The notes beneath the pieces were generated by a model that had not been told where the DNA came from, did not search any database, and saw nothing but the letters and a program-made list of their open reading frames with translations. Shown here piece by piece: positions 1-57,510 of a DNA stretch of 64,000 nt; the first letter of the stretch is position 1; each line of letters starts with the position of its first letter. Source of the DNA: the human T2T-CHM13v2.0 reference genome, Homo sapiens. A program made the translations under genes and the position numbers. The stretch lies in the NCBI RefSeq assembly GCF_009914755.1, contig NC_060930.1. The stretch is one strand, 5' to 3'.

Positions 1-290
1 GTTGGATGGGTTAAATACAAGCTCCTGGAACTGCCCCCATCCTGACCTCCAAGCCAAGATAGGAAACCAAAATCAACACCATACTCCTGGGGGAATTACA
101 AAGATCAATGACTCAATCAAAGACAAAAAAATATGTAGTGGGTGATTTCTATCATGTCCTCCTTTAACTCATCTGTTTGGATAACGTGACAGCCACAAGA
201 TTTGGAGAATGACTGTAGATTATTTCAAATCTATTCAGGAGGTAATGCCATCTCAGCTGACAGTCTGGATGTAGCAAATTTACTGGCTCC
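1..290 (+). mobile_element. ERVL-class endogenous retrovirus internal remnant (pol, RT N-terminus)
   Basis: Degenerate match to ERVL pol motifs (LELP...NQ...PGGI..I, SPFNSP.W, WRMTVDY: 'tggagaatgactgtagattat'); frameshifted. Confidence 0.75.
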
Positions 291-341: not shown

Positions 342-624
342 GACTGGATTCCAGGTCTGGTTGCTACATGTTGGATTGCTCCAGATCTTGTTGCTCCACA
401 TTGGAAGGTTCTCAGTCGTGTTCACCAAGCATCAGTAGGAATAGTAGAGGTAAGTAGGTGCTGAGGCCTTCTGAATCACACCATTGCTACCCTTTGGCTG
501 GTTGTTTTCCTGACACCTCTTAGATTTCATTCTCTGGTTCTGGAACCAGGTCTTAACCTGTTTGTAGCTAAGGCTCAGGATATTGGAAAGTTCTTGCATC
601 TGCTGGAGGCTGAGATATTTCTGT
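342..624 (-). pseudogene. NANOG: Processed NANOG pseudogene fragment, truncated at both ends (one of the NANOGP loci; NANOGP3 is my unverified guess)
   Basis: Minus strand translates [90 protein letters not shown], i.e. NANOG homeodomain helices 2-3 and start of the W-repeat. Runs through the parental KQ|VK and Q|KA exon junctions without introns; premature TGA at 432-434. Confidence 0.95.
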
Positions 625-666
625 TATTATTGGGAAAGAGGAGGAAAACTGGACTATTAAAGACTG

Positions 667-913
667 ACTCCCTGAGCGTGTTATGGAGCACAGCACTTGC
701 CCTCAGCCTTGGACTGCCAGCTCCAGACATTTACAGAGAGAAATAGCCTGTAATCGCAGCACTTTAGGAGGCCAAAGTGGGCAGATCACTTGAGCTCAGG
801 AGTTCAAGACCAGCCTGGGCAATATGGCGAGACCCCGTCTCTACAAAAAAAATACAAAAATTAGCCATGTATGGTGGCACTTGCCTGTAGTCCCAGCTAC
901 TCAGAAAGATGAG
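667..913 (+). repeat. 247-bp inverted duplicate of 5842-6088 (MaLR-like flank plus partial Alu)
   Basis: Base-by-base reverse complement of 5842-6088 with no mismatch or indel seen; flanked by ctggactattaaa repeats at 649, 914 and 930. Confidence 0.95.
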
Positions 914-1039
914 CTGGACTATTAAAGAGCTGGACTATTAAAAAAAAGTCTAAGGCTTTAGGACTTTTTTTCTGGAAGATCTGAGAGAAATATGACCTCC
1001 TGAAGTAAAAGTATCAAGAAGTTGGGATGAAGTGAGTTG

Positions 1040-2650
1040 CCTCTGTAATGGGAGGCAATCAGTTCAGTCCAGCTGGTATTCCTTATGAACAGTTAACAGA
1101 GGAAAAAAAGCTGCACGCCTGGTTATATATGGGCCTTTTTGGTGTGCAGGCACCAGCAGATGCAGATGGCTGTTGCATTTCAGCCTCACTTACAGATGGC
1201 CAAGAAAGTGTAGTGAAGGGATATTTTCCCAAAGGACAAAACTTCAGGTGGCACATTTAGTTGTCCACTTTGCATGGAAAAAGAAATGGCCTGATGTATG
1301 GATCAGTGCTAATTTTTGGGTAATGGCTAATGTACTGGCCCACTTTTCAGAGAAAGAATGAGACTGGAAGACTAGGAGCAAAGAAACCTGGGGGAGAGGT
1401 ATGTAGATTGAATGGGCACAGAGTGTGTTTTTTGATCCCTGTGAGTGCTCACCAAAGGTCAAGCACTGCAGAGGAGTTTCCCAGTAATCAGATGGACAAG
1501 ACAATCCCCATCATGCATGTCAGTTAGCTTCTCTTTCCAGTTATTCTGGTGCTTGCCCAGTGGGAAAGGGTGCCATGCGACCATGGCAACGGGGATGGAG
1601 GCCGTGGACGTCCCCTCACTCAGGTGATCTGGCCACCACAGCTTGAGTGCTTAACCTACCAATAGCAGAGGCCAAAGGTGATCTTGTAATGTTGCATTAT
1701 TCCCTGGAGGGATCACCCAGGCCCCTACGTCAGGTTGATTACATCAGAATCCTCTTATCATGGAGGTGGCATCAACTGGTTCTTAATGAATACACACATA
1801 TTCAGATTATGGATTTACTTTCTGTTCTTATGACGCTTCTTCCAGCATTTGTTGACTTAAAGGTTTATCTTTTATTGTGGTGTCCCACTCAGCATTTGCC
1901 TTGACCAGAGGCACATTTCATGGCCAAGATGTGCAACAATGGGCTTACGCTCTCAGAACATGTTGGTCTAACTGCATGTCTCATCCCTCAGAAGTAGCTA
2001 GCTTGAAAGAATGATGGAAAGACCTACTAAAATTTGAGGTGCTGTTCTAGAGGATGCAGTACATACACGCCTTAATTCTACAGTGGTGACTGCCTTATAG
2101 TCAGGATCCAAGGGTTCGAGAACAAAAAGGTAAGGTAGGAAGGGCCCCTTTCATTATTATTCCTTTCAATACACTTCCAGAACTTCTCCCTTTAATCTTC
2201 ATAACCATGGATTTGGTGGGTTTGGGGGTCCAAGTGCCCAAGGAAGGAATGCTTTTCCATGCTTAACAGTCAGGCAGTCCTGTTAAATGGAAAATTGAGC
2301 CCCGCTGTTTGGCCGTTTTTGGCTCTTGTGCTACTTAACCTAGAGGGAGCTAAAGGGGTGACTCTTACGGACGCATGATAGAAACCAATTAATAATGAGA
2401 AAATGAGTTGTTACCTTACCAGGTAAGGTGTTTGAAACCCAGGGGATTCACTATAGCAATCAGTAAACGCCCCAAAGACTGAGGTATGACAGGAAGGGGG
2501 TTTGGGTCACCCTATCAGGTAAAGAACCCCATCCAGCTAAGGTTTTAGCAGAGGATAAGGGGAACGTGGAATGGGTAGTGGAAGAAAAAAGTCATGATTC
2601 TCAAATTAGAATTTGTAACTGGTTAGAGAATTAAGGAATGTAGCAGCTGT
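1040..2650 (+). mobile_element. ERVL internal remnant (RNase H, integrase, 3' region)
   Basis: ORF fragments PYEQLTEEKK, LQVAHLVVHFAWKKKWPDV and QVDYI, plus degenerate 'DQGTHF' and 'HPEAAGL.E' integrase motifs typical of ERVL pol. Confidence 0.85.
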
Positions 2651-3158
2651 TTTGTGTTAATTGTCTCCCCTACCCCCTTCTCTGTTAATTTTTTTTGCAA
2701 TGTTTTAATAAAATATAATTTATATAACATACAGTTCACCATTTGAAAGTACATAATTTAATGTTTTTTTCTATATTCATAGCACCACCATCTAATTCCT
2801 GCACATTTCCATCATCTCAAGAAGAAACCTCTGTCAGCAGTTATTCTCTATCACCTCTTCCCCCATCTATTGGCTAATGGATTAATCACTAATCTACTTT
2901 TTGTCTGTATGGATTTGCCTATTCTGGACATTTCATATAAATGGAATCATACAATATGTGGCCTTTTGTGTCTGCTGTACTTTAGAACAATGTTTTCAAG
3001 GTTTATCCGTATTGTAGCATGTATTAGTACTTCATGCCTTCTTATGGCTAATATTCCCTTGTATGAATATACCATATCTCGTTTATCAATTTACCAACTG
3101 ATAAACATTAGGGTTGCTTCTACTTTTTCCTATTATAAATAATGCTGCTATAAACATT

Positions 3159-3269
3159 CATGTACAAGTTAGACTTGTCCTACAAAAACTTGTACAAAAC
3201 TTTGTACAAAAACCTGTACAAAACCATGTACAAAAACTTGTAGAAAAACTTCTTGTACATGTACAAGTT
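3159..3269. repeat. 12-bp-unit tandem array (tgtacaaaaact-like) inside L1
   Basis: About 6 degenerate units, bounded by catgtacaagtt at 3159-3170 and 3258-3269. Confidence 0.85.
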
Positions 3270-3597
3270 TCTGTTGACATATGTTTTCTTTTCTTTTGAT
3301 TATATACCTAGAAGTAAAATTTCTGGGTCATGTATTAAGTAGTAATATGTTTAGCGTTTTGAGGAACTCCCAAACAGTTTTCCACAGTTCTACACCACTT
3401 TACATTCCCACCAACAATATACGAGGGTTCCATTTTCTCCACATACTTGTCATCAAAAATTATTATTATTTTTATTATAGCCATCCCAGTGGGTATGAAG
3501 TGACTTCTCATTGTGGTTTTGATCTGCATTTTCCTAACGACTAATGATGTGGAACATCTTTTCATGAGTCTTTTGGCCATTTGTATGTCTTCTTTGA

Positions 3598-3937
<340 letters not shown>

Positions 3938-4873
3938 GGGTTGTCTTTTAAATATTGCATTGTAAGAGGTTTTTTTGTCATGAATTTTGGATACACTAGA
4001 CCCTTAGCAGAGACATGATTTGCAAATATTTGTCTTCTATTCTGTTGGTTGTTTTTTCACTTTCTTGATGGTGTCCTTTGATACTCAGAAGTTTTAAATT
4101 TTGATAAATTCCAGCCAATTTGTCTATTTCTTCTTTGGTTGCTTGTACTTTTAGTATCATATCTAAGAAACCATTGCTTAATCCAAAGTCATAAAGATTT
4201 ACACTTAAGTTTTTTTTAAGAGTTTTATAGTTTTTGCTTTTGATTTAGGTCTTTGATCTATTTTGAGTTAATTCTTGCATATGCTGTGAGATACGGGTAC
4301 AAATTCATTCTTTTAATGTGGATATCCAGTAGTCCCAGCACTATATGTTCAAAAGATAATTCTTCTTTCCCTATTCAATGGTCTTGGGACCCTTGCTGAG
4401 AGTCAGTTAAATATAAATGTATGAGTTTATTTCTGGACTCTCAATTCAATTCCATTGATATCTATCCTTATGCCAGTACCACAATGTCTTGATTACTGTT
4501 GCTTTGCAGTAAGTTTTAAATTTGGGAAACGTGAGTTCTCCAACTTTGTTTTACTTTCTAAGAATTACTATTACTATTTGGCTACTTCTGTTTTTTTTTT
4601 ATTTCTACATGAATTTTAGGATCAGCTTGTCCAGTTTTGCAAAAAAGGCAGTTGGAATTTTGATAGAAATTGCATTGAATTTGTAGATGTTCCTGCTCTT
4701 TTAAACAAAAAGCAAAGTAGTGGCTAAAGTTTAATGGTTTTGGAATATGCCTGAATGACATTACCCTACAGTGATATGTAGCTGATGGGATTTTGTATGT
4801 TCCCTGTGTTGGGGATACAAATTTCTCATCTAAATAAAGGATAAAAGCAGATGTTAAGAAGTAAGCAGGTGGA

Positions 4874-5375
4874 CAGTCCTGGGTATTTTCTACTTTTCAC
4901 TCTATATGCAGGCTGCACCTTTCTCCATCCTGCTCTGGGCCCCAGGAGGCTGACCTTTGTGGACCGCATCAACCAAGCCCCCTTGCTCTCCAGCTTTTGG
5001 TTGGATTCAGCCAATAGGAGGCACCAGGAAGAGACTGGAAAGTAGGAAGAAAGAGAGGTTAAGACATTGCACAAGCTCCCTCTCTGCTGAGGTGAAGTTT
5101 GGCAGTGGCTGTGTTTTTCTCTCAGTAGCACCATTCCTATTGGATCACCCTGTCCTGAAGCAAAAGATCTCTCTGGGTTCTGGTAAACAGTCCATCGACT
5201 TAAAATTTCAGGTGTAAGGGTGCTGGTGGCTTCCTATGGCTAGCCCTGGGGTGCATCATCATCCTTTATCGGTTTCTCCTAACCTTGCCAAAATCTTCAT
5301 AAATAGTCTGTTATTAAACTCCCTTTAATCAGCTGTTTCTAGTGTGCCATCTGCTTCCTATCATCCCTGATAGTC
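4874..5375 (+). mobile_element. LTR33-like ERVL LTR, probable 3' LTR of the 1-2650 provirus
   Basis: 'cctgctctgggccccaggaggctgacc...ccaataggaggcacc' core, attaaa signal, 'gtgtgccatctgcttcct' end, purine tract just upstream. Confidence 0.7.
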
Positions 5376-5574
5376 AAAATGGAAAGATCTGTAAGATATC
5401 TTAAGTCAAAGAGGCAATATGCAGAGCAGTGTAATATGAAATCTGTAATACTCTATTATTTGTAAGAGAAGGAGTAAGGAGAATATATCTTATTTTCTTA
5501 AATATTGTGTTAGGTAGGAATTAGGCTTAGCATTAAATGATAATATCCAAAAAGAACAGTGGCTTTTAAAAGAT

Positions 5575-5669
5575 CTTTCTTTCTTTTCTCCCTTCCTTCC
5601 TTCCTTCCTCTCTTTCTCTCTCTTTCTTTCTTTCTTTCTTTTCTCCCTTCCTTCCTTCCTTCCTCTCTT

Positions 5670-5705
<36 letters not shown>

Positions 5706-5748
5706 CTCCTTCCTTCCTTCCTTCATTTCTTTCTTTCTTTTTTTCTTC
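5575..5748. repeat. Polypyrimidine (TTTC/TTCC/TC)n tract at Alu tail
   Basis: Near-pure pyrimidine run abutting the Alu. Confidence 0.95.
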
Positions 5749-6010
5749 TCAGGATCTTGCTCTGTTGCCCAGGCTGGAGTACAGTGGTGTGATCTTGGCT
5801 CACTGCAACTTCTGCCTCCTGGGCTCCAGTGATCCTCTCACCTCATCTTTCTGAGTAGCTGGGACTACAGGCAAGTGCCACCATACATGGCTAATTTTTG
5901 TATTTTTTTTGTAGAGACGGGGTCTCGCCATATTGCCCAGGCTGGTCTTGAACTCCTGAGCTCAAGTGATCTGCCCACTTTGGCCTCCTAAAGTGCTGCG
6001 ATTACAGGCT
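5749..6010 (-). mobile_element. AluJ-like (donor of the 667-913 duplicate)
   Basis: Reverse Alu lacking its extreme 5' end. Confidence 0.9.
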
Positions 6011-6400
6011 ATTTCTCTCTGTAAATGTCTGGAGCTGGCAGTCCAAGGCTGAGGGCAAGTGCTGTGCTCCATAACACGCTCAGGGAGTTAGTTTCTTTCT
6101 AGTTCACCAGCCCTCCTTCCTTAGGGCAGGTTCTTGTCCTCCAATGTAATGTTACATCCACTCTTCAGGAAGCAGGATGGAATGGAGAAGAAGGGGCAAA
6201 GGGCATGTCCCAAGGAAGGTTCCTGGAAGTTGCCTCATAGCCTGTTTGTCTGTATCCCATCTGGTCACATCTAACTATAAGGGAGCCTGGGGAACATATT
6301 TTTAATTCCTGGCAGCCAGGTGTCCAGCTAAAAATTCTAACACTATTTAAGAAGAGAAGAATGAAAATGGGAAGTAATTAACAGTCTTTGTCACATATGT
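6011..6400. mobile_element. Old MaLR LTR (MLT1J/K-like)
   Basis: 'ggcagtccaaggctg', 'ggtcacatctaactataagggagcctggggaa' resemble MLT1J/K. Confidence 0.55.
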
Positions 6401-26711: not shown

Positions 26712-27145
26712 TACTATAGTTTGGATGTTTTTCCCCTCCAGATCTCATGTTGAAATTAGATCCCCAGTGTTGGAGGTGGGACCTAATGGTAGGTGTTTTG
26801 GTCATGGGGGTGGACCCCTCATGAACAGGTTAATGATTTCTCTGGCAGCAGGGGAATGATTGAGTGAGTTCTTACAATATTGGTTCCCACAAGAGATGGT
26901 TGTTAAAGAGAGCATGGCACCTCTCCCCATCTCTCTTTGCTTCTTCTCTTGCCATGTGATCTCTGCAAACATTGGCTGCCCTTTGCTTTCCACCACGAAT
27001 GGACGCAGCCTGAGGTCCTCACCAGATGCAGATGCCAGAGCCATGCTTCTTGTATAGCCTACAGAACTATGAGTCAAATAAACCTCTTTTCTTTATAAAT
27101 TACCCAGCCTCAAGTATTCCTTTATAGCAACACAAAACAGACATA
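26712..27145 (+). mobile_element. MSTB-like MaLR LTR
   Basis: 'tatagtttggatgtt...ctcatgttgaaatt...aaataaacctcttttctttataaattacccag'. Confidence 0.9.
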
Positions 27146-28298
27146 CATATACATACATACATATATACACACACATGTATATACAAATATAGGAATACAT
27201 CCATACAAATATATATGGTGAAAAGGAATATAGCAGGCAAAGGACAAAACCCAACTTAGGAAAAATGACTCAGAACATTCCCTACAATTACTTACCATGA
27301 TATTGCAGAGCTAGAGGAACAAATGTAGAAACAGATCAATGTATTAATGGAAAATTCATCTGTGATAAAAATCAGTGGGGTTTGGATTCAGTAAACGGTA
27401 CAGTGGCAAGTAGCTATCCATGGAGAAAAATAGAAAGTTATATCCTTGATTCATACAATATACAAAAGTTCATATGGCTTAAAGAGCTAAACATAAAAAA
27501 TGGTAAGAACTCAAAGAAAACAGTAGAAGCATATTGTTTCTGCCAAGACTGCATTAATAATCAGCAACTGACATTCAGGATAGGATTTTGCCACAAGGAA
27601 CAAGGATACCAAGGGACAGGAATCAGAGACAGATGATAGCATTTTACCTTAGAGAACTCCCAGCCAGACAGAAGGAGAACCAGGGTAAATTCACTCTTTC
27701 CAGTCCTGGGAGACTGTGGGAAGAAGAACTGGGCAACATAGTAGGAGAGTAAATCATTGGACACATGTCCTAAGAGAGGAAGACATGTCAGATCAATTGA
27801 GGAGAATAAGGGCAGAAGAGCTCTTGCTTTACTTCCTACATGGGTTGTGGAGGACATGGCTGTGCCCGGGTTGTGTGCCCGGGCTGCACACCTAACATGG
27901 TGGTGTGCAGCAACGTTAGGAGAGGGACAGATTGGGTAGAGGTCATTGTATTTCTGAATTCCTGTGCTTCTCCAAGTGGATACACCAAGTTAAGAGCCAT
28001 CGGAGCCTGTTATAAAGTGGGTGGGTTGGCCCTGCACCAAACACTTAAGTGTTGGTCACCTAGGCCGGAGGGCCATATATATTTGTATGGATGTATTCCT
28101 ATATTTGTATATATGTGTGTTTATGTGTATATAAATATATATGTATGTGTTTGTGTTGCAATAAGGAAATACTTGAGGTTGGGTAATTTATAAAGAAAAT
28201 TTATAAAGAGGAAATATGTGGCAGATGCTCAGTGGAGTCTGCAATCCAGCAAAGACCAGAGGAAGCCAAGGGAGTGGGGAGGCTGCTATGGTTCTTAC

Positions 28299-40674: not shown

Positions 40675-42910
40675 TTACACTGCCACAAGTCAAGGAATGC
40701 CAAGGATTGCCAGCAACCACCAGAAACTAGAAGGAGCAAGGAAGAATTTTTCCATAGAGCATTCAGCAGGAGCATGGCCCTGCTAACACCTTGATTTTGG
40801 ACTTCTAACTGCTGGAACTGTGAGAGAATAAATTTCTGTTGCTTTAGGCTACCCAGCTTATTATATTATATTTCATTACAGCAGATCCAGGAAACTAACA
40901 CAACCAGGAAAAGCTGAAACTTATTGATTACTGGCTTAAACAGTCCTCTTCCTATTTCAAAGTCTATTCACCTTTTGGGATACCAGTTACAAACTTACCT
41001 ATTTCTCTTACTCTGAGCCCCCAGTGGATTGGCAAGTCAGAAGTTATTGAAGGAAGGTAGAGCAAGATGGTTGGATAGGAGCTGCCACCAATTGTCCTCC
41101 CCACAGGAATACCAAATTGAACACATATCCACATAAAAAGCACCTTCATAAGAACCAAAATTCAGATGAGAGATTGCAGTACTTTCAAATTCATTTTACA
41201 ATGTTAATATTTCCCTGATACCAAAACCAGACAAACACACTGAAAAAAAAAAGCAACCTATAGGTCAATATCCCTAATGAACATTAATGCAAAAACCCTC
41301 AACCAAATACTAGCAAACCAAATTCAAATATACATTAAAAAGATAATTCATCATGACCAAGTGGGATTTATTCCAGAAATACAAGGATGTTTCAACATAT
41401 GCAAATTAATCAATGTGATATATATCCTATCATTAGAATGAAGGACAAAAATGATCATTTCAATTGATGCTGAAAAAACATTTGATAAAATTCAACATCC
41501 TTTCATAATAAAAACCCTCAGAAAACTAGGTATTCAAGGAACATACTACAACACAGTAAGAGCCATATATGACAGACCCACAGCTAATATCATGCTGAAC
41601 GGGGAAAAACTTACAGCCTTTCCTTTAAGACCTGAAATATGACAAGGATGCTCATTTTCACCACCGTTATTCAACATAGTACTGGAAGTCCTAGCTGGAG
41701 TAATCAGACTAGAGAAAGAAATAAAGGTATCCAAATTGGAAAGGAAAAAGGCAAATTATCCTTCTTTGCAGGTGATAGGATCTCATATTTGGGAAAACCT
41801 AAAAACTCCACGCAAAAACTGTTAGAACTGATAAACAAATTCAGTAAGGTTGGAGGATACAAAATCAACATACATAAATCAGTAGCATGTCTATATGCCA
41901 ACAGTAAACAATCTGAAAAAGAAATCAAGAAAGTAATCTTATTTATAGTAGCTACAAATAATATAAAATACCTAGGGATAAACTTAACAAAAGAAGTCAA
42001 AGATCTCTGCAATGAAAACTATAAAACACTGATGCAAGAAACTGAAGAAGACACAAAAAATGAAAAGATATTTGGTGTTCATGGCTTGGAAGAATCAGTA
42101 TTGTTAAAATGTCCATGCAAGGGCTGGGCATGGTGGCTCATGCCTGTAATACCAGCATTTTGGGAGGCCTAGGTAGGAGGATCGCTTGAGGCCAAGAGTT
42201 TGAGGCCAGCCTGGCCAACATGCGAAAACTCTGTCTCTACTATAAAAAAGTACAAAATTAGCCAGGCATGGTGGCACATGCCTATAGTCTCCAGCTACTC
42301 AGGAGACTAAGCCATGAGAATTTCTTGAATCCCGAAGGCGGGGGTTGCAGTGAGCTGAGATTGCTGCTCCACTGCACTCCAGCCTGGGTGACAGAGCAAG
42401 ACTCTGTTTAAATAAAATAAAAATAAAAATAAAATGTCCATACTACCCAAAGCAACCTACACATTCAGTATAACCTCTATCAAAATACTAATGACATTCT
42501 TCACAGGAATAGAAAAAAAAATCCTAAAATTGATATAGAACCACAAAAGACCCCAAATAGCCAAAGCTATCCTGAGCAAAAAGAATGAAACTGGAGGAAT
42601 CACATTACCTGACTTCAAATTACACTACAGAGATATAGTAACCAAAGCAGCATGGTACAGGCATATAAACAGACATATAGGATGACTACAGTCAACAATA
42701 ATTTATTGCACATTTAAAAATCACTAGAAGAATATTATTAGATTGTTTGTAACACAAAGAAAGGATAAATGCATAGGGTGATGGATACTCTACTTGCCCT
42801 GATATGATTATTATGCATTGTATGCCTATATCAAAATATCTTATACATTCCATAAATATATACACCTACTATGAACCCACAAAAATTAAAAGTTGAAAAA
42901 TGAAAAAAAA
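40675..42910 (+). mobile_element. Composite L1MA copy: MLT1 part + unique flank + L1 5' end (40675-41182), ORF2 segment (41183-42680), L1 3' end and A tail
   Basis: 40675-41182 is a diverged reverse complement of 56765-57270; ORF2 motifs ([33 protein letters not shown]); 3' end resembles 48810-49025. Confidence 0.85.
42122..42430 (+). mobile_element. Alu inserted in L1 ORF2
   Basis: Dimer; flanking repeat aaaatgtccat. Confidence 0.9.
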
Positions 42911-48765: not shown

Positions 48766-51700
48766 TTTTTAAAAAAAGCTTATGTTTAATGTTTTAAAAA
48801 CTTATTTTTAATTTTTAATTTTTGTGGGTACATAGTAGGTGTATATATTTATGTGGTACACAGAATATTTTGATACAGGTATATAATGTGTAATGACCAC
48901 ATCAGGGTGTATGAGGTATCCATTACCCCACGCATTTATCCTTTCTTTGCATTATAAACAATCCAATTATACTCTTTTAGTTATTTTTAAATGTGCAATA
49001 AATTACTGTTGACTGTAGTCATCCTGTTGTGCTATCACATACTAGATCTTACTCATTCGATCTAACTATATTTTTGTACCCATTAACCATCCCTATTTCC
49101 ACCACTGCCCCTCCATTCCCAGCCTCTGGTAACCAGCCTTCTACTCTATCTCTGTGAGTTCAATTGTTTTAATTTTTAGTTCCCACAAATAAGCAAGAAC
49201 ATGTGAAGTTTGTCTTTCTGTGCTTGGTTTATTCTTAACATAATGTCTTCCAGTTCCACCCATGTTGTTGCAAATGACTGGATCTCATTCTTTTTTATGG
49301 CTGATAAGTACTCCATTGTGTACAAGTACCACATTTTCTTTATCCATTCATCTGTTGATGGACACTTAGGTTGTTTCAAGTCTTAGCTATTGTGAATAGT
49401 GCTGCAACAAACATGGGAGTGCAGATATCTCTTGGACATAGTGATTTTCTTTCTTTTGAGTATATATCTAGCCATGGAGTTACTGGATTATCTGGTAGCT
49501 CTATTTTTAGATTTTTTTTTGAGGAACCTCCAAACTCTTCTCCATAGTGGTTGTACTAACTTACATTTCCACCAACAGTGCATGAAGGTGGCCTTTTTTC
49601 CACGTGTTCTCCAGCATTCATTATTGTCTGTCTTTTGAATAAAAGTCATTCTTACTGGGGTGAGCTAATATCTCATTGTAGTTTTCATTTGCATTGCTCT
49701 GATGACCAATGATGTTGAGCACCTTTTCATATGCCTGTTTGCCATTTGTATGTCTTCTTTTGAAAAATGTCTATTCAGATCTTTTTCCCATTTTTAAATT
49801 GGATTATTAGATTTTTTTTCCCTATTGAGTTGTTTGAGTTCATTATAAGACTGGTTATTAATCCCTGGTCAGATGGATAGTTTGCAAATATTTTCACCCA
49901 TTCTGTGGGTTGTCTCTTCACTTTGTTGATTGTTTCCTTTGCTGTGCAGAAGGTTTTAAACTTGATGTGATCCCAATGGTCCATTTTTGCTTTGATTGCC
50001 TGTGCTTGTGGGGTATTACTCAAGAAATCTTTGCCCAGATTAATGTCCTGGAGAGTTTCCCCAATGTTTTCTTGTAGTAGTTTCATAGTTTGAGGTCTTA
50101 GGTTTAAGTCATTAATTCATTTTGATTTGATTTTTGTATGTAGTAAGAGATAGGGATCTAGTTTCATTCTTCTGCATATGGATATCCAGTTTTCCTAGCA
50201 GCATTTATTGAAGAGACTGTCCTTTGAGCAAACTGTGTTCCTGTGACTTTTGTCAAAAATGAGTTTACTCTAGGTGTATGGATTTGTTTCTGGGTTCTCC
50301 ACTCTGTTTCATTGGTCTGTTGGTCTGTTTTTATGCCAGTACCATGCGTTTTGGTTACTATATCTCTGTACTATAATTTGAAGTCAGGTAATGTGAGTCC
50401 TCTAGCTTTGTTCTTTTTGCTCAGGATAGCTTTGGCTATTCTGGGTCTTTTGGGGTTCCATGTCAATTTTAGGATTTTTTTTCTATTTCTGTGAAGAATA
50501 TCATTGGTATTTTGATAGGGATTGCATTGAATCTGTAGATTGCATTGGCTAGGATGGACATTTTAACGTTGATTTTTCCAGTTTTTTATGTCCTCTTCAA
50601 TTTCTTGAATCAATGTTTTATAGTTTCCATTGTAGAGATCTTTTAGTTCTTTGGTTAAGTTTATTCCTACCTATTTTATATTATTTGTAGCTACTGTAAA
50701 TAAGATTATTTTCGTGATTTCCCTTTCAGAATGTTTGCTGTTGACATGTAGAAATACTACTGATTGGCTGGGCTCAGTGGCTCACCCTGTAATCCCAGAA
50801 CTTTGGGAGGCCAAGGTGGGAGGGTCATTTGAGACCAAGCGTTCGAGATCAGCCTGGCTAACATGGCAAAACCCTGTCTCTACAAAAAATACAAAAATTA
50901 GCCAGGCGTGGTTGTGCACACCTGTAATCCTAACTACTCAGGAGGCTGGCACATGAGAATAGCTTGAACCCATGAGGTGGAGGTTGCAGTAAGCTGAGAT
51001 CACACCACTGCACTCCAGCCTGGGTGACAGAGTGAGACTCCTTTTCAAAAAAAAAAATCTACTGATTTATGCATGTTGATTTTGTATCCTGCAACTTCAC
51101 TGAATTTGTTTACCAATTCTAATATACTTTTTATGGAATCTTTAGTTTTTTTGAAATATAAGATCATATCGTCTGCAAACAAGGATAATTTGACTTCTTC
51201 CTTTCCAATTTGGATGACCTTTTATTTCATTCTTTTGTTTGATTGCTTTAGCTAGGACTTCCAGTACTATGTTGAATAACAGTGGTGAAAGTAAGCATCC
51301 TTATCTTGTTCCAGATCTCAGAGGAAAGGCATTCAGTTTTTTTGTGTTTAGTATGATAATAATTGTGGGTCTGTCATATATAGCTTTTACTGTGTTGTGG
51401 TATGTTCCATGAACACCCAGTTTTTTAGTGATTTTTTTTTTAATCATGAAGGGATGTTGAATTTTATCAAATGCTTTTTTAGTATCAGTTGAAATGATCA
51501 TGTGGTTTTTGTCCTTCATTCTATTGGTATGATGTATCACATTGATTGATTTGTGCATGTTGAGCCATCCTTGCATCTCTGGGATAAATCCCACTTGGCC
51601 ATGATAAATGATGTTTTTAATCTGTTGTTGAATTTGGTTTGCTAGTATTTGGTTGAGGATTTTTGCATTAATGTTCATCAGGGAAATTGGACTTTAGTTT

Positions 51701-54700
51701 GATTTTTTGTGTGTCTTTGGTTTTAGTATCAGGGTAATACTGGCCTCATAGAATGAGTTAGGAAGTTTTCCCTTCTCTCCTATTTTTTGGAGTAGTTTCA
51801 GTAGGATTGACATTAGTTGTTCTTTAAATATTTGGTACAACTCAGCAGTGAAGCCATCAGGTCCTGGGCTTTTCTTTACTGGAGATTTTTCTTGTTTCAG
51901 TTTTGATCTCATTACTTTTTATTGGTCTGTGCAGGTTTTGGATTTCTTCATTGTTCAATCTTGGTAGGTTTTTTATGTCTAGGAATTTATCCATTTCTTC
52001 TAGATTTTCCAATGTACTGGCTTATAGTTGTTCCTAATAGCCTCTGATAATCTTTTGAAGTTCTACAGTATCAGTTATAATGTATCCTTTTTCATCTTCA
52101 GTATTATTTATTTGGGTATTCTCTCTTTCTTTCTTAGTATGGCTAAAGCTTTGTCTATTTTGTTTATCTTTTCAAAAACCCAACTTTTCATTTCATTGAT
52201 TTTTGTATTGTTTTCTTTGTTTAAATTTCATTTATTTCTGCTCTGATCTTTATTATTTCTTTTCTTCTACTGATTTTGGGTTTGGTTTACTCTGGCTTTC
52301 ATAGTTCTTTAAGATGCATTGTTAGTTTGTTTATGTGAAGTTCTTCTACTTTTTTTGATATAGATGCTTATAGCTGTACACTTTCCTCTTAGTACTGCTT
52401 TCACTGTATCCCATAGGTTCTGTTAGGTTGTGTTTCCATGTTCATTTGTTTCAAGAAATTTTTAAATTTCCTTCTTCATTTCTTCATTGACTCACTGATC
52501 ATTCAGGAGCACATTGTTTAATTTTCATGGTTTTTTTTTGTAGTTTCCAAATTTCTCTTGTTATTGATTTCTAGTTTTATTTCACTGTGGTCAGAGATGA
52601 TATTTGATATAATTTCATTTTTTTGAATCTTTAAAGACTTCTTTTGTGGCCTATCATAAGGTCTATTCTTGAGAATGATCCATGGGCTGAAGAGAAGAAT
52701 GCATATTCTGCAGCTATTGCATAAAATGTTCTGTAAATATCTATTAGGTTCATTTGGTCTGTAGCGCAGGTTAAGTCCAATGTTTCTTTGTCAATTTTCT
52801 GTCTGGATGATGTGTCCAATGCTGAAAGTAGGGTGTTGAAGTGTCCTGGTATCATTGTATTGGGGTCTATGTCTCTCTTTAGCTTTAATATTTGCTTTGT
52901 ATATCTGGGTGCTCCAGTGTGGGTGCACACATATTTACAACATATATTTGCAGCTCATTATATAACGTTAAAAGGTTCAAGTCAGCAAGAGGATATAAAC
53001 ATAGACCCCAATACAATGATAAGGGGACATTTCATATTTATAAGTGTATATCATATCTTCATATTTATAATTATAATATAGATATATATTTATATTATAT
53101 TTACATATAAATATATCCTGTTCATATGTTTATATCCTCTTGCTGACTTGAGCCCTTTATCATTATATAATGACATTCTTTGCCTCTTTTTATAGTTTTG
53201 TCTTGAATTCTATTTTATCTGATATAGGTATAGCTATTTCTGCTCTTTTGTTGGTTTCCATCTGAATGAAATATCTGTTTCCATTCCTCAATTTTCAGTT
53301 TCTGTGTGTCTTTATAGGTAAAGTGTGTTTCTTGTAGGCCACAGATCATTGGCTCTTGTTTTTGTTGTTGTTGTTGTTTGTTTGTTTTAAATCCATTCAG
53401 CCACTCTGTGATTGGAGAGTTTAGTCCATTTACATTAAATGGTATTATTGATCAGTAAGGACTTGCTCTTGCCATTTTGCTATTTGTTTTCCGGTTGTTT
53501 TGTGGTCTTCTCTTCCTTCTTTCCTTCCTTCCTGTCTTCCTTTCCAGTCAAGGTGACCTTCTCTGTTGGTATGTTTTAATTTCTTGCTATTTATTTTTTG
53601 TGTATCTGTTGTATGATTTTTGATTTGAGGTTACCGTGAGACTTGCAAATAATATAATCCATTATTTTAAACCGGTAACAACTTAGCACTGATTGTGTAA
53701 ACAAAATAACAAGCAAGCAAAGAAAACTAATACACAAGCAAAGAGAAACAAGCAGAGAAACAAACGAGCAAAGAGAAAACTAACGAATGCTCTACATTTT
53801 AACTGCATCCCCCCGCTTTTTAACTTTCTGTTGATTTATGTCTTATTATACTCTCTGTGTCTCAAATAGTTGTTGTAGTCACTATTTTTTATTGGTTCAT
53901 CTTTTAGTCTTTCTACTCAAGATCTGAGGAGTTTACACACCACAGCTACAGTGTTACAATATTCTGTGTTTTTCTGTGTGCTTACTATTACCAGTGAGTT
54001 TTGTACCTTCAAATGATTTCTTGTTGCTCATTAATTTTATATTCTTTCAAATTGAATAACTCTCTTTAGCATTTTTTGTAGGACAGGTCTGGAGTTAATG
54101 AAATCCCTCAGCTTTTGTTTGTCTAAGAAAGTCTTTCTTTCTCCTTCGTGTTTGAAGGATACTGTCACTGGATATACTAGTCCAGGATAAAATTTCTTTT
54201 TCTTCAGCACTTGAAATACATCACGCTACTCTCTCCTGGCCTGTAAGGTTTCTGCTGAGAAGTCTGCTGTCAGATATATTAGAGCTTTATTGTAGGTTAT
54301 TTGTTTCTTTTCTCTTGTTGCTTGCAGATCCTTTCTTTATCCTCAACCTTTGGGAGATTGACTATTAAATGTCTTGAGGCAGTCTAATTTGTTTTAATTC
54401 TGCTTGCTATTCTATAACATTCTTGTACCTGAATAGGGATATCTTTCTCTAGGTTTGGGAAGTTCTCTGTTATTATTCCCTTTGAATAAACTTTCTACCC
54501 CTATCTCTCTCTCTACTTCTTCTTTAAGGCCAATCACGGTTAGATTTGCCCTTTTCAGATTATTTTCTAGATCATGTAGATGTGCTTCATTCTTTTTTAT
54601 TCATTTTCTTTTGTCTCCTCTGACTGTGTATTTTCAAATAGCCTATCTTCAAGCTCACTAATTCTTTCTTCTGCTTGATCAATTCTGCTGTTATCACCCT

Positions 54701-56895
54701 GATTCATTCTTTGGTATGTCAATCGCACTTTTCAACTCTAGAATTTTTGCTTGTTTCTTTTTTAAATATTTCACTCCTTTTGTTACATTTACGCGATAGG
54801 ATTCTAAATCCCTTCTCTGTGTTATCTTGAGTTTCAGTGAGTTTCTTCAAAACAGCTATTTTGAGTTCTCTATCTGAAAGGTCACATATCCCTATCTCTC
54901 TATGATTGGTCCCTGGTGCCTTATTTTGTTTGTTTGGTGAAATTATGTTTTTCTGGATGGTCTTGATGCTTGTTGATATTCATCAGTGTCTGGTCATTGA
55001 AGAGTTAGGTATTTACCATAGTCTTCACAGTCTGGGCTTGTTTGTACTTGTCCTTTTTAGGAAAGAGTTTCAGGTATTTGAAGGGACTTGGTGTTGTTAT
55101 CTAAGTTTTTGATCATTGCACCAGTATCTGCATTTGTGGGCCCCCCAAGCTCAGCAACGGTGTGTCTCTTGTAGACTCACAGAGGCACCACCTAGGTGGT
55201 CTTGGATAAGATCCATAAGAATCCCCTGGATTATGAGGCAGATAAATTTTTGTTCTCTTCCTTTACTTTCTCCCCAACGAACAGCATCTCTCTCTCTCTC
55301 TCTCATTCTCTGCAAAGCTGCCTGTTCTGGGGGGAGGCCTGACACAAACACCTCTGAGGCCACCATCACTGGCACTGCTCTGTGTTAGACTTAGAACTAG
55401 CACAGCAATGGGTCTTGCGGAAGGTCCGCAGTAACCACTGTCTGGCTACCGCCTATGTTTGCTCAAAGGCCCAAGGGCTCTACAATCAGCAGATGATTAA
55501 GCCAGTCAGGCTTGTGTCTTTCTGTTCAGGGTTATGAGTTCCCCAGTCCTGGGTGGGTCCATAGATGCTGTTTGGGAGCCAGGAACTGGAGTTAGAAGCC
55601 ATAGAAATCTAACTGGTACTCTCTTCCACTGCAGCTGAGCTGGCACCCAAGCAGGAAAACAAAGTTCTTCTCACTCTTCTCTCCCTTTTCCACAACCAGA
55701 GCAGTCTCCCTCCATGGCCACTACCACCCCAGGCTTGTGGCGAGTACTGCCTGGCTACCACCGATGTTCACTCAAGGCCCAAGGAGTCCTCAGTCAGTTT
55801 GTCGTGAGTGCTTCCAGGCCTGGGACTCTCTTTTCAGGGAAGTGGGCTTTCCTCTGCCCCAGGGCAGGTCTAGAAATGTCATCCAAGAGCCAAGGCCTGG
55901 AATCAGGGACACCAAAAGTCCACTTGATCCTCTACCCCACTGTAGCTGATGTGGTACCTAGGCTGCAAGACAAAATCCCCTTTACTTTTATCTCTCCTTT
56001 TCTCAAGCAGAAGCAGTCCCTCATAATCACCACACCTGGGAATGTGCCAAGTCTCATCTGAAGTAAGCGCAGCTCTGAGTCTCACCCAACGCTCATGGTG
56101 AGTACTGCCTGGGTACTGTTGCTGACTATTCAGCACCCAAGGGCTCTTTGTTCAGCAGGTGATAAATCTTGCCAGGACTAGCTGCTTCCCTTCAAGGCAA
56201 TAGGATCCCTTCTTGCCCAAGCTGTATCTAGAAATGTCTGGGTACTAGGGCCTGGAATGGGAGCCTCAGGACTCTGCCTAGTACTCTATACTGCTGTGGT
56301 TGAGTTGGTATGCAAGTTGCAAGACAAAGTCCTATTTAGTCTTCCTTCTCTTCTTAAGCAGAAGGAAGGAGTCTCTTCTGAAGCTGTGAGCTGCTCTGCC
56401 CGGGGTTCAGAGAGGGGCAGCTCAAGCACTCCCTTGGATACCCTGGCTGGTGTCTCACTACGTTACATGCTCCGCAAATCCACTGGCTCTGAGCCTATCA
56501 TAGCACCTTGACTTGCCCAGGAATTGCAGTTCTTGTGGCCTAGGCTGTTTTTCAGGTTTATTTAGAACCCCAGAGCATTTTAACTCACAGCATCAAGGCT
56601 TGCTGGAACTCAGGTTTCGACTGCTAGGATGGCTGATTCTCCTCTGGCTAAGGCTAGTCTAGATGCTCCCTCCATGGGCACTGGCTGAGTTCTGCCTGGT
56701 GTTGCTTTCTGCTGTGACAGGGCAGCACTGGGTGCCTCTTTCAGTTATACGAAGTTCAACCCAGGTACTGTAATCTCTCACCTAAATTTTGGTTCTTATG
56801 AAGGTGTTTTTATGTGGATATGTGTTCAATTTGGTGTCCCTGTGGAGAGGACAATTGGTGGCAGCTTCTATCCAGCCATCTTGCTCTACCTCCCT
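48766..56895 (-). mobile_element. Full-length degenerate L1MA (L1MA2/3-like)
   Basis: 5'UTR start at ~56894, repetitive 5'UTR 55.4-56.7 kb, ORF1 and ORF2 remnants (EN, RT: [27 protein letters not shown]), 3'UTR; TSD tcaatcattt at 48756-48765 and 56896-56905. Confidence 0.92.
50766..51057 (+). mobile_element. Alu inserted in L1
   Basis: Dimer; flanking repeat ctactgatt. Confidence 0.9.
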
Positions 56896-57042
56896 TCAAT
56901 CATTTCTGAGTGACCAATCAACTGGGGGCTCAGAATAGGAGAAATAGGTAAGTCTGTAATTAGTATCCCAAACGGTGAATAGACTTTAAATAGGAAGAGG
57001 ACTGTTTAAGTCAGTAATCAATAAGTTTCAGCTTTTCCTGAT

Positions 57043-57510
57043 TGTGTTAGTTTCCTGGATTGGCTGTAATGAAGTATAATATAATAAGCTGGGCAATTTA
57101 AAACAACAGAAATTTATTCTCTCACAGTGCCAGCAGCTAGAAGTCCAAAATCAAGGTGTCAGCAGGGCCATGCTCCCTCTGAAGGCTCTATGGAAAAATT
57201 ATTTCTTGCTTCTTCTAGTTTCTGGTGGTTGCTGGCAATCCTTGGCGTTCCTGGATTTGCAGCAGTGTAACTCCAATCTCTGCCTCCATCTTCACACGGC
57301 CTTTGTCCCTGTGTGTCTGTGTGTCTCCAAATATCTCTTTTTATAAGGACATTGATCAGTGGATTTAGGGCCCACCATGATCCAATAAGACCTCATCTTG
57401 ACTTGATTACATCTGCAAAAGCCTTTTTCCAAATAAGGTCAAGTTCACAGGTACTGGGGGTTAGGACTTCAACATGTCTTTTGTGGGGATACAATTCAAC
57501 CAACAACACT
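57043..57510 (-). mobile_element. MLT1B/C-like MaLR LTR upstream of and co-oriented with the L1
   Basis: 'tgtgttagtttcctgg...aacaacagaaatttattctctcacag...ttataaggacattg'. Confidence 0.85.

What the first reader, a model, noticed from the sequence alone, without database searches (positions are those of the whole stretch)
649..945. Very recent templated insertion: perfect 247-bp inverted copy of DNA 5 kb away
667-913 is the exact reverse complement of 5842-6088, including an old diverged Alu plus its non-Alu flank, so it is not an Alu retrotransposition. It is bracketed by ctggactattaaaga (649-663, 914-928), and gagctggactattaaa is tandemly repeated (911-926, 927-942). Iterated junction synthesis plus a nearby inverted template is the signature described for polymerase theta-mediated end joining or MMBIR/FoSTeS. 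Zero divergence implies it is lineage-specific or polymorphic (or homogenised), and the pair could promote inversion of 914-5841.
Basis: partly seen in the sequence, partly recalled or inferred. Interest (0 to 1): 0.7.

Follow-up and report, generated by a model that had tools for sequence, protein, structure and literature searches.

The report
Small inverted duplication inside NANOG pseudogene
A 247-base stretch of DNA sits copied backwards, 5 kb from its source, inside a dead copy of the NANOG gene; it likely arose by a replication or repair slip, likely in the human lineage, and is an ordinary, well-catalogued kind of small rearrangement.

Summary
In detail: 667-913 is the exact reverse complement of 5842-6088. 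The right arm is the donor. The left arm lies inside the 5'UTR part of NANOGP3, which runs to 1073, past its RefSeq span. In 9 of 9 NANOG paralogs, position 648 joins 921 with 0-1 bases between, so the insertion is 649-920 (272 nt) with almost no target loss.

The junction scar is made of repeated pieces of the ancestral 16-nt unit 921-936, with 3-nt microhomology at both switches to the donor. There is no poly-A and no L1 endonuclease motif at the edges.

This fits the published class of small inverted duplications (<1 kb, within 5 kb; median 284 bp), most likely formed by microhomology-primed template switching. Zero mismatches only bound the age at about 1.2% divergence, so fixed or polymorphic is open. 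The 4.9-kb spacer is not inverted here. No ape or population data could be reached.

Side finding: 2005-2733 is copied behind a young L1 on chr3, implying a source L1 at 2004|2005 that this assembly lacks.

The parts
649..920 (.). Whole insertion relative to the NANOG-family ancestral state (272 nt); target loss 0-1 nt in an A run
   Evidence: 9 of 9 paralog loci join the bases aligned to 648 and 921 with 0-1 nt between
649..663 (+). Local copy read across the end-to-start joint of the 16-nt unit 921-936; identical to 914-928
664..666 (+). 3-nt linker; with 667-669 it reads as a further pass over the unit with two single-base gaps, and it also resembles the donor's outer flank
   Evidence: sequence
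667..913 (-). Exact inverted copy of 5842-6088 (79 nt non-Alu flank plus 168 nt Alu, no poly-A)
914..920 (+). 7-nt local copy (CTGGACT) of 930-936, entered through GAG shared by the donor end (911-913) and 927-929
921..942 (+). Target site: 921-936 is ancestral NANOG 5'UTR; ATT at 937-939 is seen only in NANOGP3 and creates the 6-nt repeat ATTAAA (921-926, 937-942)
342..1073 (-). True extent of processed pseudogene NANOGP3 (RefSeq gives 342-624), interrupted by the insertion; an older internal deletion lies near 622-624
5842..6088 (+). Donor segment in its native place
   Evidence: The Alu aligns unbroken over 5841|5842 to many window Alus; one LTR-like paralog aligns across 6088|6089, weakly
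5726..6009 (-). Old Alu whose 5' 168 nt were copied
914..5841 (.). 4,928-nt spacer between the arms, in ancestral orientation in this assembly
   Evidence: NANOGP3 pieces and flanking old-repeat pieces are collinear across 913|914; Alu intact at 5841|5842

Best explanation
This is a small inverted duplication: 5842-6088 is copied backwards into the NANOGP3 5'UTR with short repeats of the target unit on both sides, likely made by a stalled or broken DNA end that switched template on 3-nt microhomologies, likely in the human lineage. Shown: donor and recipient identity, 0-1 nt target loss, a scar built from circular passes over unit 921-936, GAG and ACT microhomologies, no poly-A. Inferred path, read on the minus strand: an end in the unit slipped on the 6-nt ATTAAA repeat, primed on the donor at 5842-5844, copied 247 nt, came back at 934-936, re-copied about 20 nt of the unit with two single-base skips, and joined 648 without microhomology. 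Inferred enzymology: replicative switching (MMBIR/FoSTeS type) for the long tract, with theta-like abortive synthesis possible for the short pieces. Whether the unit had already been partly duplicated before the 247-nt event is open. No function is expected.
For: Exact 247-nt copy with sharp ends. Paralogs fix the empty site (9 of 9). 649-663 and 911-942 are exact substrings of the circularised unit, and the end-to-start joint is in 0 of 9 paralog loci. The donor end shares 3 nt with the bases before 930 and 0 nt with those before 649; the donor start shares 3 nt with 934-936. Size, distance and microhomology match the published class, whose authors favour a replicative origin.
Against: The microhomologies are short. 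The ancestral target matches the donor no better than about 6% of 57,238 nearby sites at either switch (3,358 and 3,214 sites score as high), so donor choice is not explained by homology alone. The 648|649 joint has no microhomology. The path needs four or more switches if it was one event. DNA versus RNA template cannot be told from sequence. No ape orthologue or population data were seen.
Confidence: 0.75

Rival explanations
1. RNA-templated patch: a plus-strand transcript over 5842-6088 was reverse-transcribed from the broken top-strand end, endonuclease-independently (class 2 TSIP type). A read-through transcript of the L1 inferred to have sat at 2004|2005 is a candidate template.
For: The insert's top strand is the cDNA orientation of a plus-strand RNA. 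The left junction resembles the donor's outer flank (166 of 57,238 sites score as high, post hoc). A young plus-strand L1 source is implied 1.1 kb away. RNA patches are proposed for class 2 TSIPs.
Against: Orientation agrees by chance half the time. There is no splice or poly-A mark. TSIP donors are described as distant. The one known read-through ended at 2733. This haplotype lacks the L1. Inverted duplications are reported as not typically retrotransposition-associated.
Confidence: 0.1
2. Old duplication, older than the human-chimpanzee split, kept identical by chance or by gene conversion between the arms.
For: P(0 of 247) is 0.05 at 1.2% divergence and 0.02 at 1.6%; close inverted arms can convert (general knowledge).
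Against: P is 5e-4 at 3.1%. There is no decayed homology beyond 663-916, so a conversion tract would have to cover the whole copy exactly.
Confidence: 0.07
3. Classical L1-mediated insertion (target-primed reverse transcription) with a 15-nt target-site duplication 649-663 / 914-928.
For: A formal 15-nt direct repeat brackets the copy. A TT/AAAG step, recalled as a tolerated endonuclease site, lies inside the unit.
Against: No poly-A at either end, and no TTTT/A at either edge on either strand. The 'duplicated' 15-mer is not the paralogs' state of the site. The Alu part is the 5' half with upstream flank.
Confidence: 0.03
4. Assembly artefact.
For: Perfect identity; no reads were seen here.
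Against: The junctions carry 18 and 7 nt of locally templated extra sequence with internal gaps, which an assembler would not build (inference). Flanks are collinear with paralogs.
Confidence: 0.02

Closest known systems
Small inverted duplications ('Inverted Dup', Sudmant 2015, PMC4617611; Schloissnig 2025, PMC12350158; passages read)
   Same: Under 1 kb, inserted within 5 kb of the other copy, inverted, 1-15 bp microhomology, no retrotransposition marks; 247-272 nt against a median of 284 bp.
   Different: Those sets are polymorphic calls; polymorphism here is untested. This case has an unusually readable scar because NANOG paralogs give the empty site.
Polymerase theta templated insertions (Carvajal-Garcia 2020, PMC7165422; passages read)
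   Same: Short direct repeats of sequence within 30 bp of the break, several rounds, short microhomologies, AT-rich template.
   Different: The main tract is 247 nt and from 5 kb away; the paper's insertions were 1-157 bp, first-round tracts rarely over 10 bp, distal templates under 0.1% of repair.
Templated sequence insertion polymorphisms, classes 1 and 2 (Onozawa and Aplan 2016, PMC5110952; first third and passages read)
   Same: Templated patch of similar size; microhomology and extra junction bases as in class 2.
   Different: Donor is local, not distant; no poly-A or endonuclease motif as class 1 needs.
Inverted-repeat-mediated (NAHR) polymorphic inversions (PMC13629690; passages and supplement search)
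   Same: A perfect inverted pair flanks 4.9 kb.
   Different: No inverted allele is seen here, and no chr6 entry matched the coordinate terms tried (hg38 terms from a recalled offset).

Membership tests
Small inverted duplication | Duplicated stretch under 1 kb in inverted orientation | tested here: met
   247 nt; definition
Small inverted duplication | Inserted within about 5 kb of the other copy | tested here: met
   4,928 nt between the arms
Small inverted duplication | Donor intact and spacer not inverted | tested here: met
   (outer donor edge only weakly: 22 of 500 shuffles reach the score)
Small inverted duplication | 1-15 bp microhomology at junctions | tested here: met
   3 nt at both donor switches, 0 nt at 648|649; class statement
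Small inverted duplication | Polymorphic among humans | not testable with these tools
   one genome only; supplement searches gave no entry
Class 1 TSIP / L1 target-primed insertion | Target-site duplication of 5 bp or more | tested here: inconclusive
   formal 15-nt repeat, but not the paralogs' state of the site
Class 1 TSIP / L1 target-primed insertion | Poly-A tail after a polyadenylation signal | tested here: not met
Class 1 TSIP / L1 target-primed insertion | 5'-TTTT/A-3' at the insertion edge | tested here: not met
Class 2 TSIP | Microhomology or added bases, no poly-A | tested here: met
Class 2 TSIP | Donor in a distant genomic region | tested here: not met
   donor 4.9 kb away; definition
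Polymerase theta templated insertion | 3-30 bp repeats of sequence flanking the break, in several rounds | tested here: met
   649-666 and 914-920
Polymerase theta templated insertion | Short tracts from a template within about 30 bp | tested here: not met
   main tract 247 nt from 5 kb
Polymerase theta templated insertion | Dependence on POLQ | not testable with these tools
   historical germline event
Inverted-repeat-mediated inversion | An allele with the spacer inverted exists | not testable with these tools
   not inverted in this assembly; other haplotypes not available

The most novel reading that the evidence does not exclude
The inverted copy is a reverse-transcribed patch made from the read-through RNA of a young, now missing L1 that sat 1.1 kb away at 2004|2005, the same ghost element whose 3' transduction survives on chr3. 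That would make active L1s a source of the common local inverted duplications now credited to replication errors.
Probability: 0.06. Interest if true: 0.65.

Novelty: new member of a known kind. Interest (0 to 1): 0.27.

Why it matters
By itself it matters little: it lies in a truncated pseudogene with no annotated functional element. Its value is as a clean worked example. The NANOG paralogs supply the empty site, so the junction path of a germline inverted duplication can be read almost base by base, and an ape orthologue would settle one event versus two. It may also cause false inversion calls or, rarely, seed a 4.9-kb inversion. The side finding, an L1 source locus that is empty in this assembly but left a transduction on chr3, points to a polymorphic or lost active element worth looking up.

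Tried and rejected
Alu retrotransposition: rejected (5' half plus flank, no poly-A, donor intact). Spacer inversion in this haplotype: rejected.

Hairpin next to the target as the trigger: 941-971 folds at -7.6 kcal/mol, z -1.73, 11 of 200 shuffles as good; inconclusive. Extended homology guiding donor choice: not significant with the ancestral target (about 6% of sites); the 0.3% figure uses the product junction and is post hoc. Continuity of the donor's outer edge rests on one diverged paralog (22 of 500 shuffles); direct searches found no paralog across it.

Chimpanzee state: PMC1457002 lists a 418-nt chimpanzee NANOGP3 interval, which fits neither 732 (with insert) nor 460 (without) and depends on an unknown query span; no supplement was readable, so it was not used.

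Catalogue look-ups, all without a chr6 entry: PMC4617611 (1 file), PMC13629690 (3 files), PMC12350158 (3 files, the main one cut when stored), PMC6191304 (1 small file). PMC7783806 gave no coordinates. The hg19/hg38 terms came from recalled offsets, so these negatives are weak. Two wanted papers (deletion-breakpoint templates; great-ape variant tables) were not held. Unseen supplements may list this variant. A full-text search for NANOGP3 gave 5 papers; in the two read the passages seen do not mention the insertion, and the other three were seen only as listings. A search of upstream spacer DNA (4700-5560) found no further recent copies.

Full report
Observation. Window 667-913 is the exact reverse complement of 5842-6088, 247 of 247 bases, with no exact extension on either side. 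It is the longest exact repeat in the window; the next inverted exact repeat is 41 nt. Genome-wide, only these two places carry the non-Alu part at high identity, and the Alu part matches other Alus at 85-90%. The 15-mer at 649-663 and 914-928 and the 16-nt tandem pair at 911-942 are as described.

Which arm is native. The Alu at about 5726-6009 aligns unbroken across 5841|5842 to many other window Alus. An LTR-like element (MLT1 type, label recalled) continues across 6088|6089 in a pairwise alignment with one chr9 paralog, though weakly for that piece (22 of 500 shuffles). The right arm is therefore the donor.

The target site. A genome search with 929-2400 hit nine loci over the part within 929-1073, on chromosomes X, X, 9, 12, 7, 15, 2, 14 and 12. 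These are the chromosomes listed for NANOG and its pseudogenes in PMC1457002, and 7 of the 9 loci also align to the annotated NANOGP3 span 342-624. NANOGP3 thus runs from 342 to 1073, and the insertion is inside its 5'UTR part (the UTR label is recalled). In 9 of 9 paralogs the base aligned to 648 is followed, after 0-1 bases of an A run, by the base aligned to 921. The insertion is 649-920, 272 nt, with essentially no target loss. NANOGP3 pieces on both sides keep one orientation, as do flanking old retroviral-like pieces (ERVL type, label recalled; L026), so the 4,928-nt spacer is not inverted in this haplotype.

The scar. Call the ancestral stretch 921-936 the unit. Both 649-663 and 911-942 are exact substrings of the unit read in a circle, and the end-to-start joint occurs at 649, 914 and 930 but in 0 of 9 paralog loci. 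Paralogs have G or GT where NANOGP3 has ATT at 937-939; this makes a 6-nt repeat, ATTAAA, on both sides of the unit and may be an older change or part of the same scar. The donor end shares GAG with the bases before 930 and nothing with the bases before 649; the donor start shares ACT with 934-936. Bases 664-669 read as one more pass over the unit with two single-base skips.

Mechanism. The inferred path is slippage on the 6-nt repeat, a switch to the donor on 3 nt, 247 nt of error-free copying, a return on 3 nt, a sloppy re-copy of the unit, and a blunt join at 648. An equally possible history has the unit partly duplicated earlier and the 247-nt event adding a 15-23 nt target duplication; only an ape orthologue separates these. 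Against a strong homology-guided model, the ancestral target matches the donor no better than about 6% of 57,238 nearby sites at each switch. A nearby hairpin is not significant. A long pyrimidine tract at 5574-5747 lies about 95 nt from the donor and might expose single-stranded DNA; this is conjecture. The short pieces look like polymerase theta insertions, but in PMC7165422 insertions were 1-157 bp, mostly templated within 30 bp, with distal templates under 0.1% of repair (passages read). A replicative switch fits the long tract better. There is no poly-A and no TTTT/A at the edges, so target-primed insertion is unlikely. An RNA template cannot be excluded.

Age. Zero differences in 247 nt give a 95% upper bound of 1.2% divergence; P(0) is 0.05 at 1.2%, 0.02 at 1.6% and 5e-4 at 3.1%. 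With a flat prior, about 95% of the weight lies below 1.2% and 39-52% below 0.2-0.3%. Taking 1.2% as the human-chimpanzee value and 0.1-0.3% as human haplotype depth (both recalled), a human-lineage origin is likely and fixed versus polymorphic is about even.

Comparison with what is known. PMC4617611 reports that 54% of sequenced inversions were inverted duplications, nearly all under 1 kb and within 5 kb of the other copy, and not typically linked to retrotransposition (passages). PMC12350158 reports 277 such events with median 284 bp and mostly 1-15 bp microhomology (passages). This case meets every feature that could be tested. It fails class 1 TSIP (no poly-A, no motif) and the distant-donor feature of class 2. 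I found no catalogue entry for this locus in four supplement searches. These were partial files and partly used recalled coordinate offsets, so it may well be listed elsewhere.

Side finding. Window 2005-2733 is copied at chr3:25,701,569-25,702,295 with 722 of 729 identities. There it follows an L1 3' end and poly-A and ends in a second poly-A about 20 nt after an AATAAA signal. The block sits inside an older L1, whose 3' end resumes after it and differs from the first 3' end at many sites. The younger 3' end carries a motif found 485 times in the genome, which I recall as the human pre-Ta diagnostic. This is the anatomy of a 3' transduction whose source L1 stood at 2004|2005, a TT/GAAA step, where this assembly has uninterrupted old repeat sequence (L025 and L028 align across it). 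The source is therefore polymorphic or lost. No other near-identical copy appeared among the candidates scored (40 of 228 and 40 of 134). Nothing ties it directly to the inverted copy; the link is only the low-probability novel case.

Verdict. Real, correctly spotted, and a new member of a common known class; interest 0.27.

Noticed in passing
window 2005-2733; L015, L029 (chr3:25,701,569-25,702,295, minus): 99% copy (722 of 729) behind a young L1 3' end and before a second poly-A, nested in an older L1: a likely 3' transduction whose source L1 at 2004|2005 is absent from this assembly. Possibly a polymorphic or lost human-specific source element.
   Followed up: partly
window 342-1073: NANOGP3 is longer than its RefSeq span: it includes 5' sequence at 622-648 and 921-1073, with an older internal deletion of about 345 nt near 622-624 relative to processed paralogs.
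   Followed up: partly
window 40675-42899 versus 48805-57270: Several older inverted similarities: 40675-41182 / 56765-57270 (508 nt, 91%), and 41168-42899 matching 48805-51779 in four pieces at 80-88%. Could be two copies of one transposon family or an old inverted duplication.
   Followed up: no
window 27087-27218 versus 28073-28199: Inverted match of about 130 nt at 87% with a 41-nt exact core, about 0.85 kb apart; might be another small, older local inverted copy.
   Followed up: no
window 941-971: Near-perfect hairpin just beyond the target site; z -1.73, not significant.
   Followed up: yes
window 3181-3251 and 5574-5747: A 12-nt tandem array (5.9 copies) and a long pyrimidine-rich tract next to the donor Alu.
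   Followed up: no
window 56-146 and 1079-2595: Old retroviral-like internal sequence (ERVL type, label recalled) flanks NANOGP3 in one orientation; about 1 kb seems missing relative to paralog L026.
   Followed up: no
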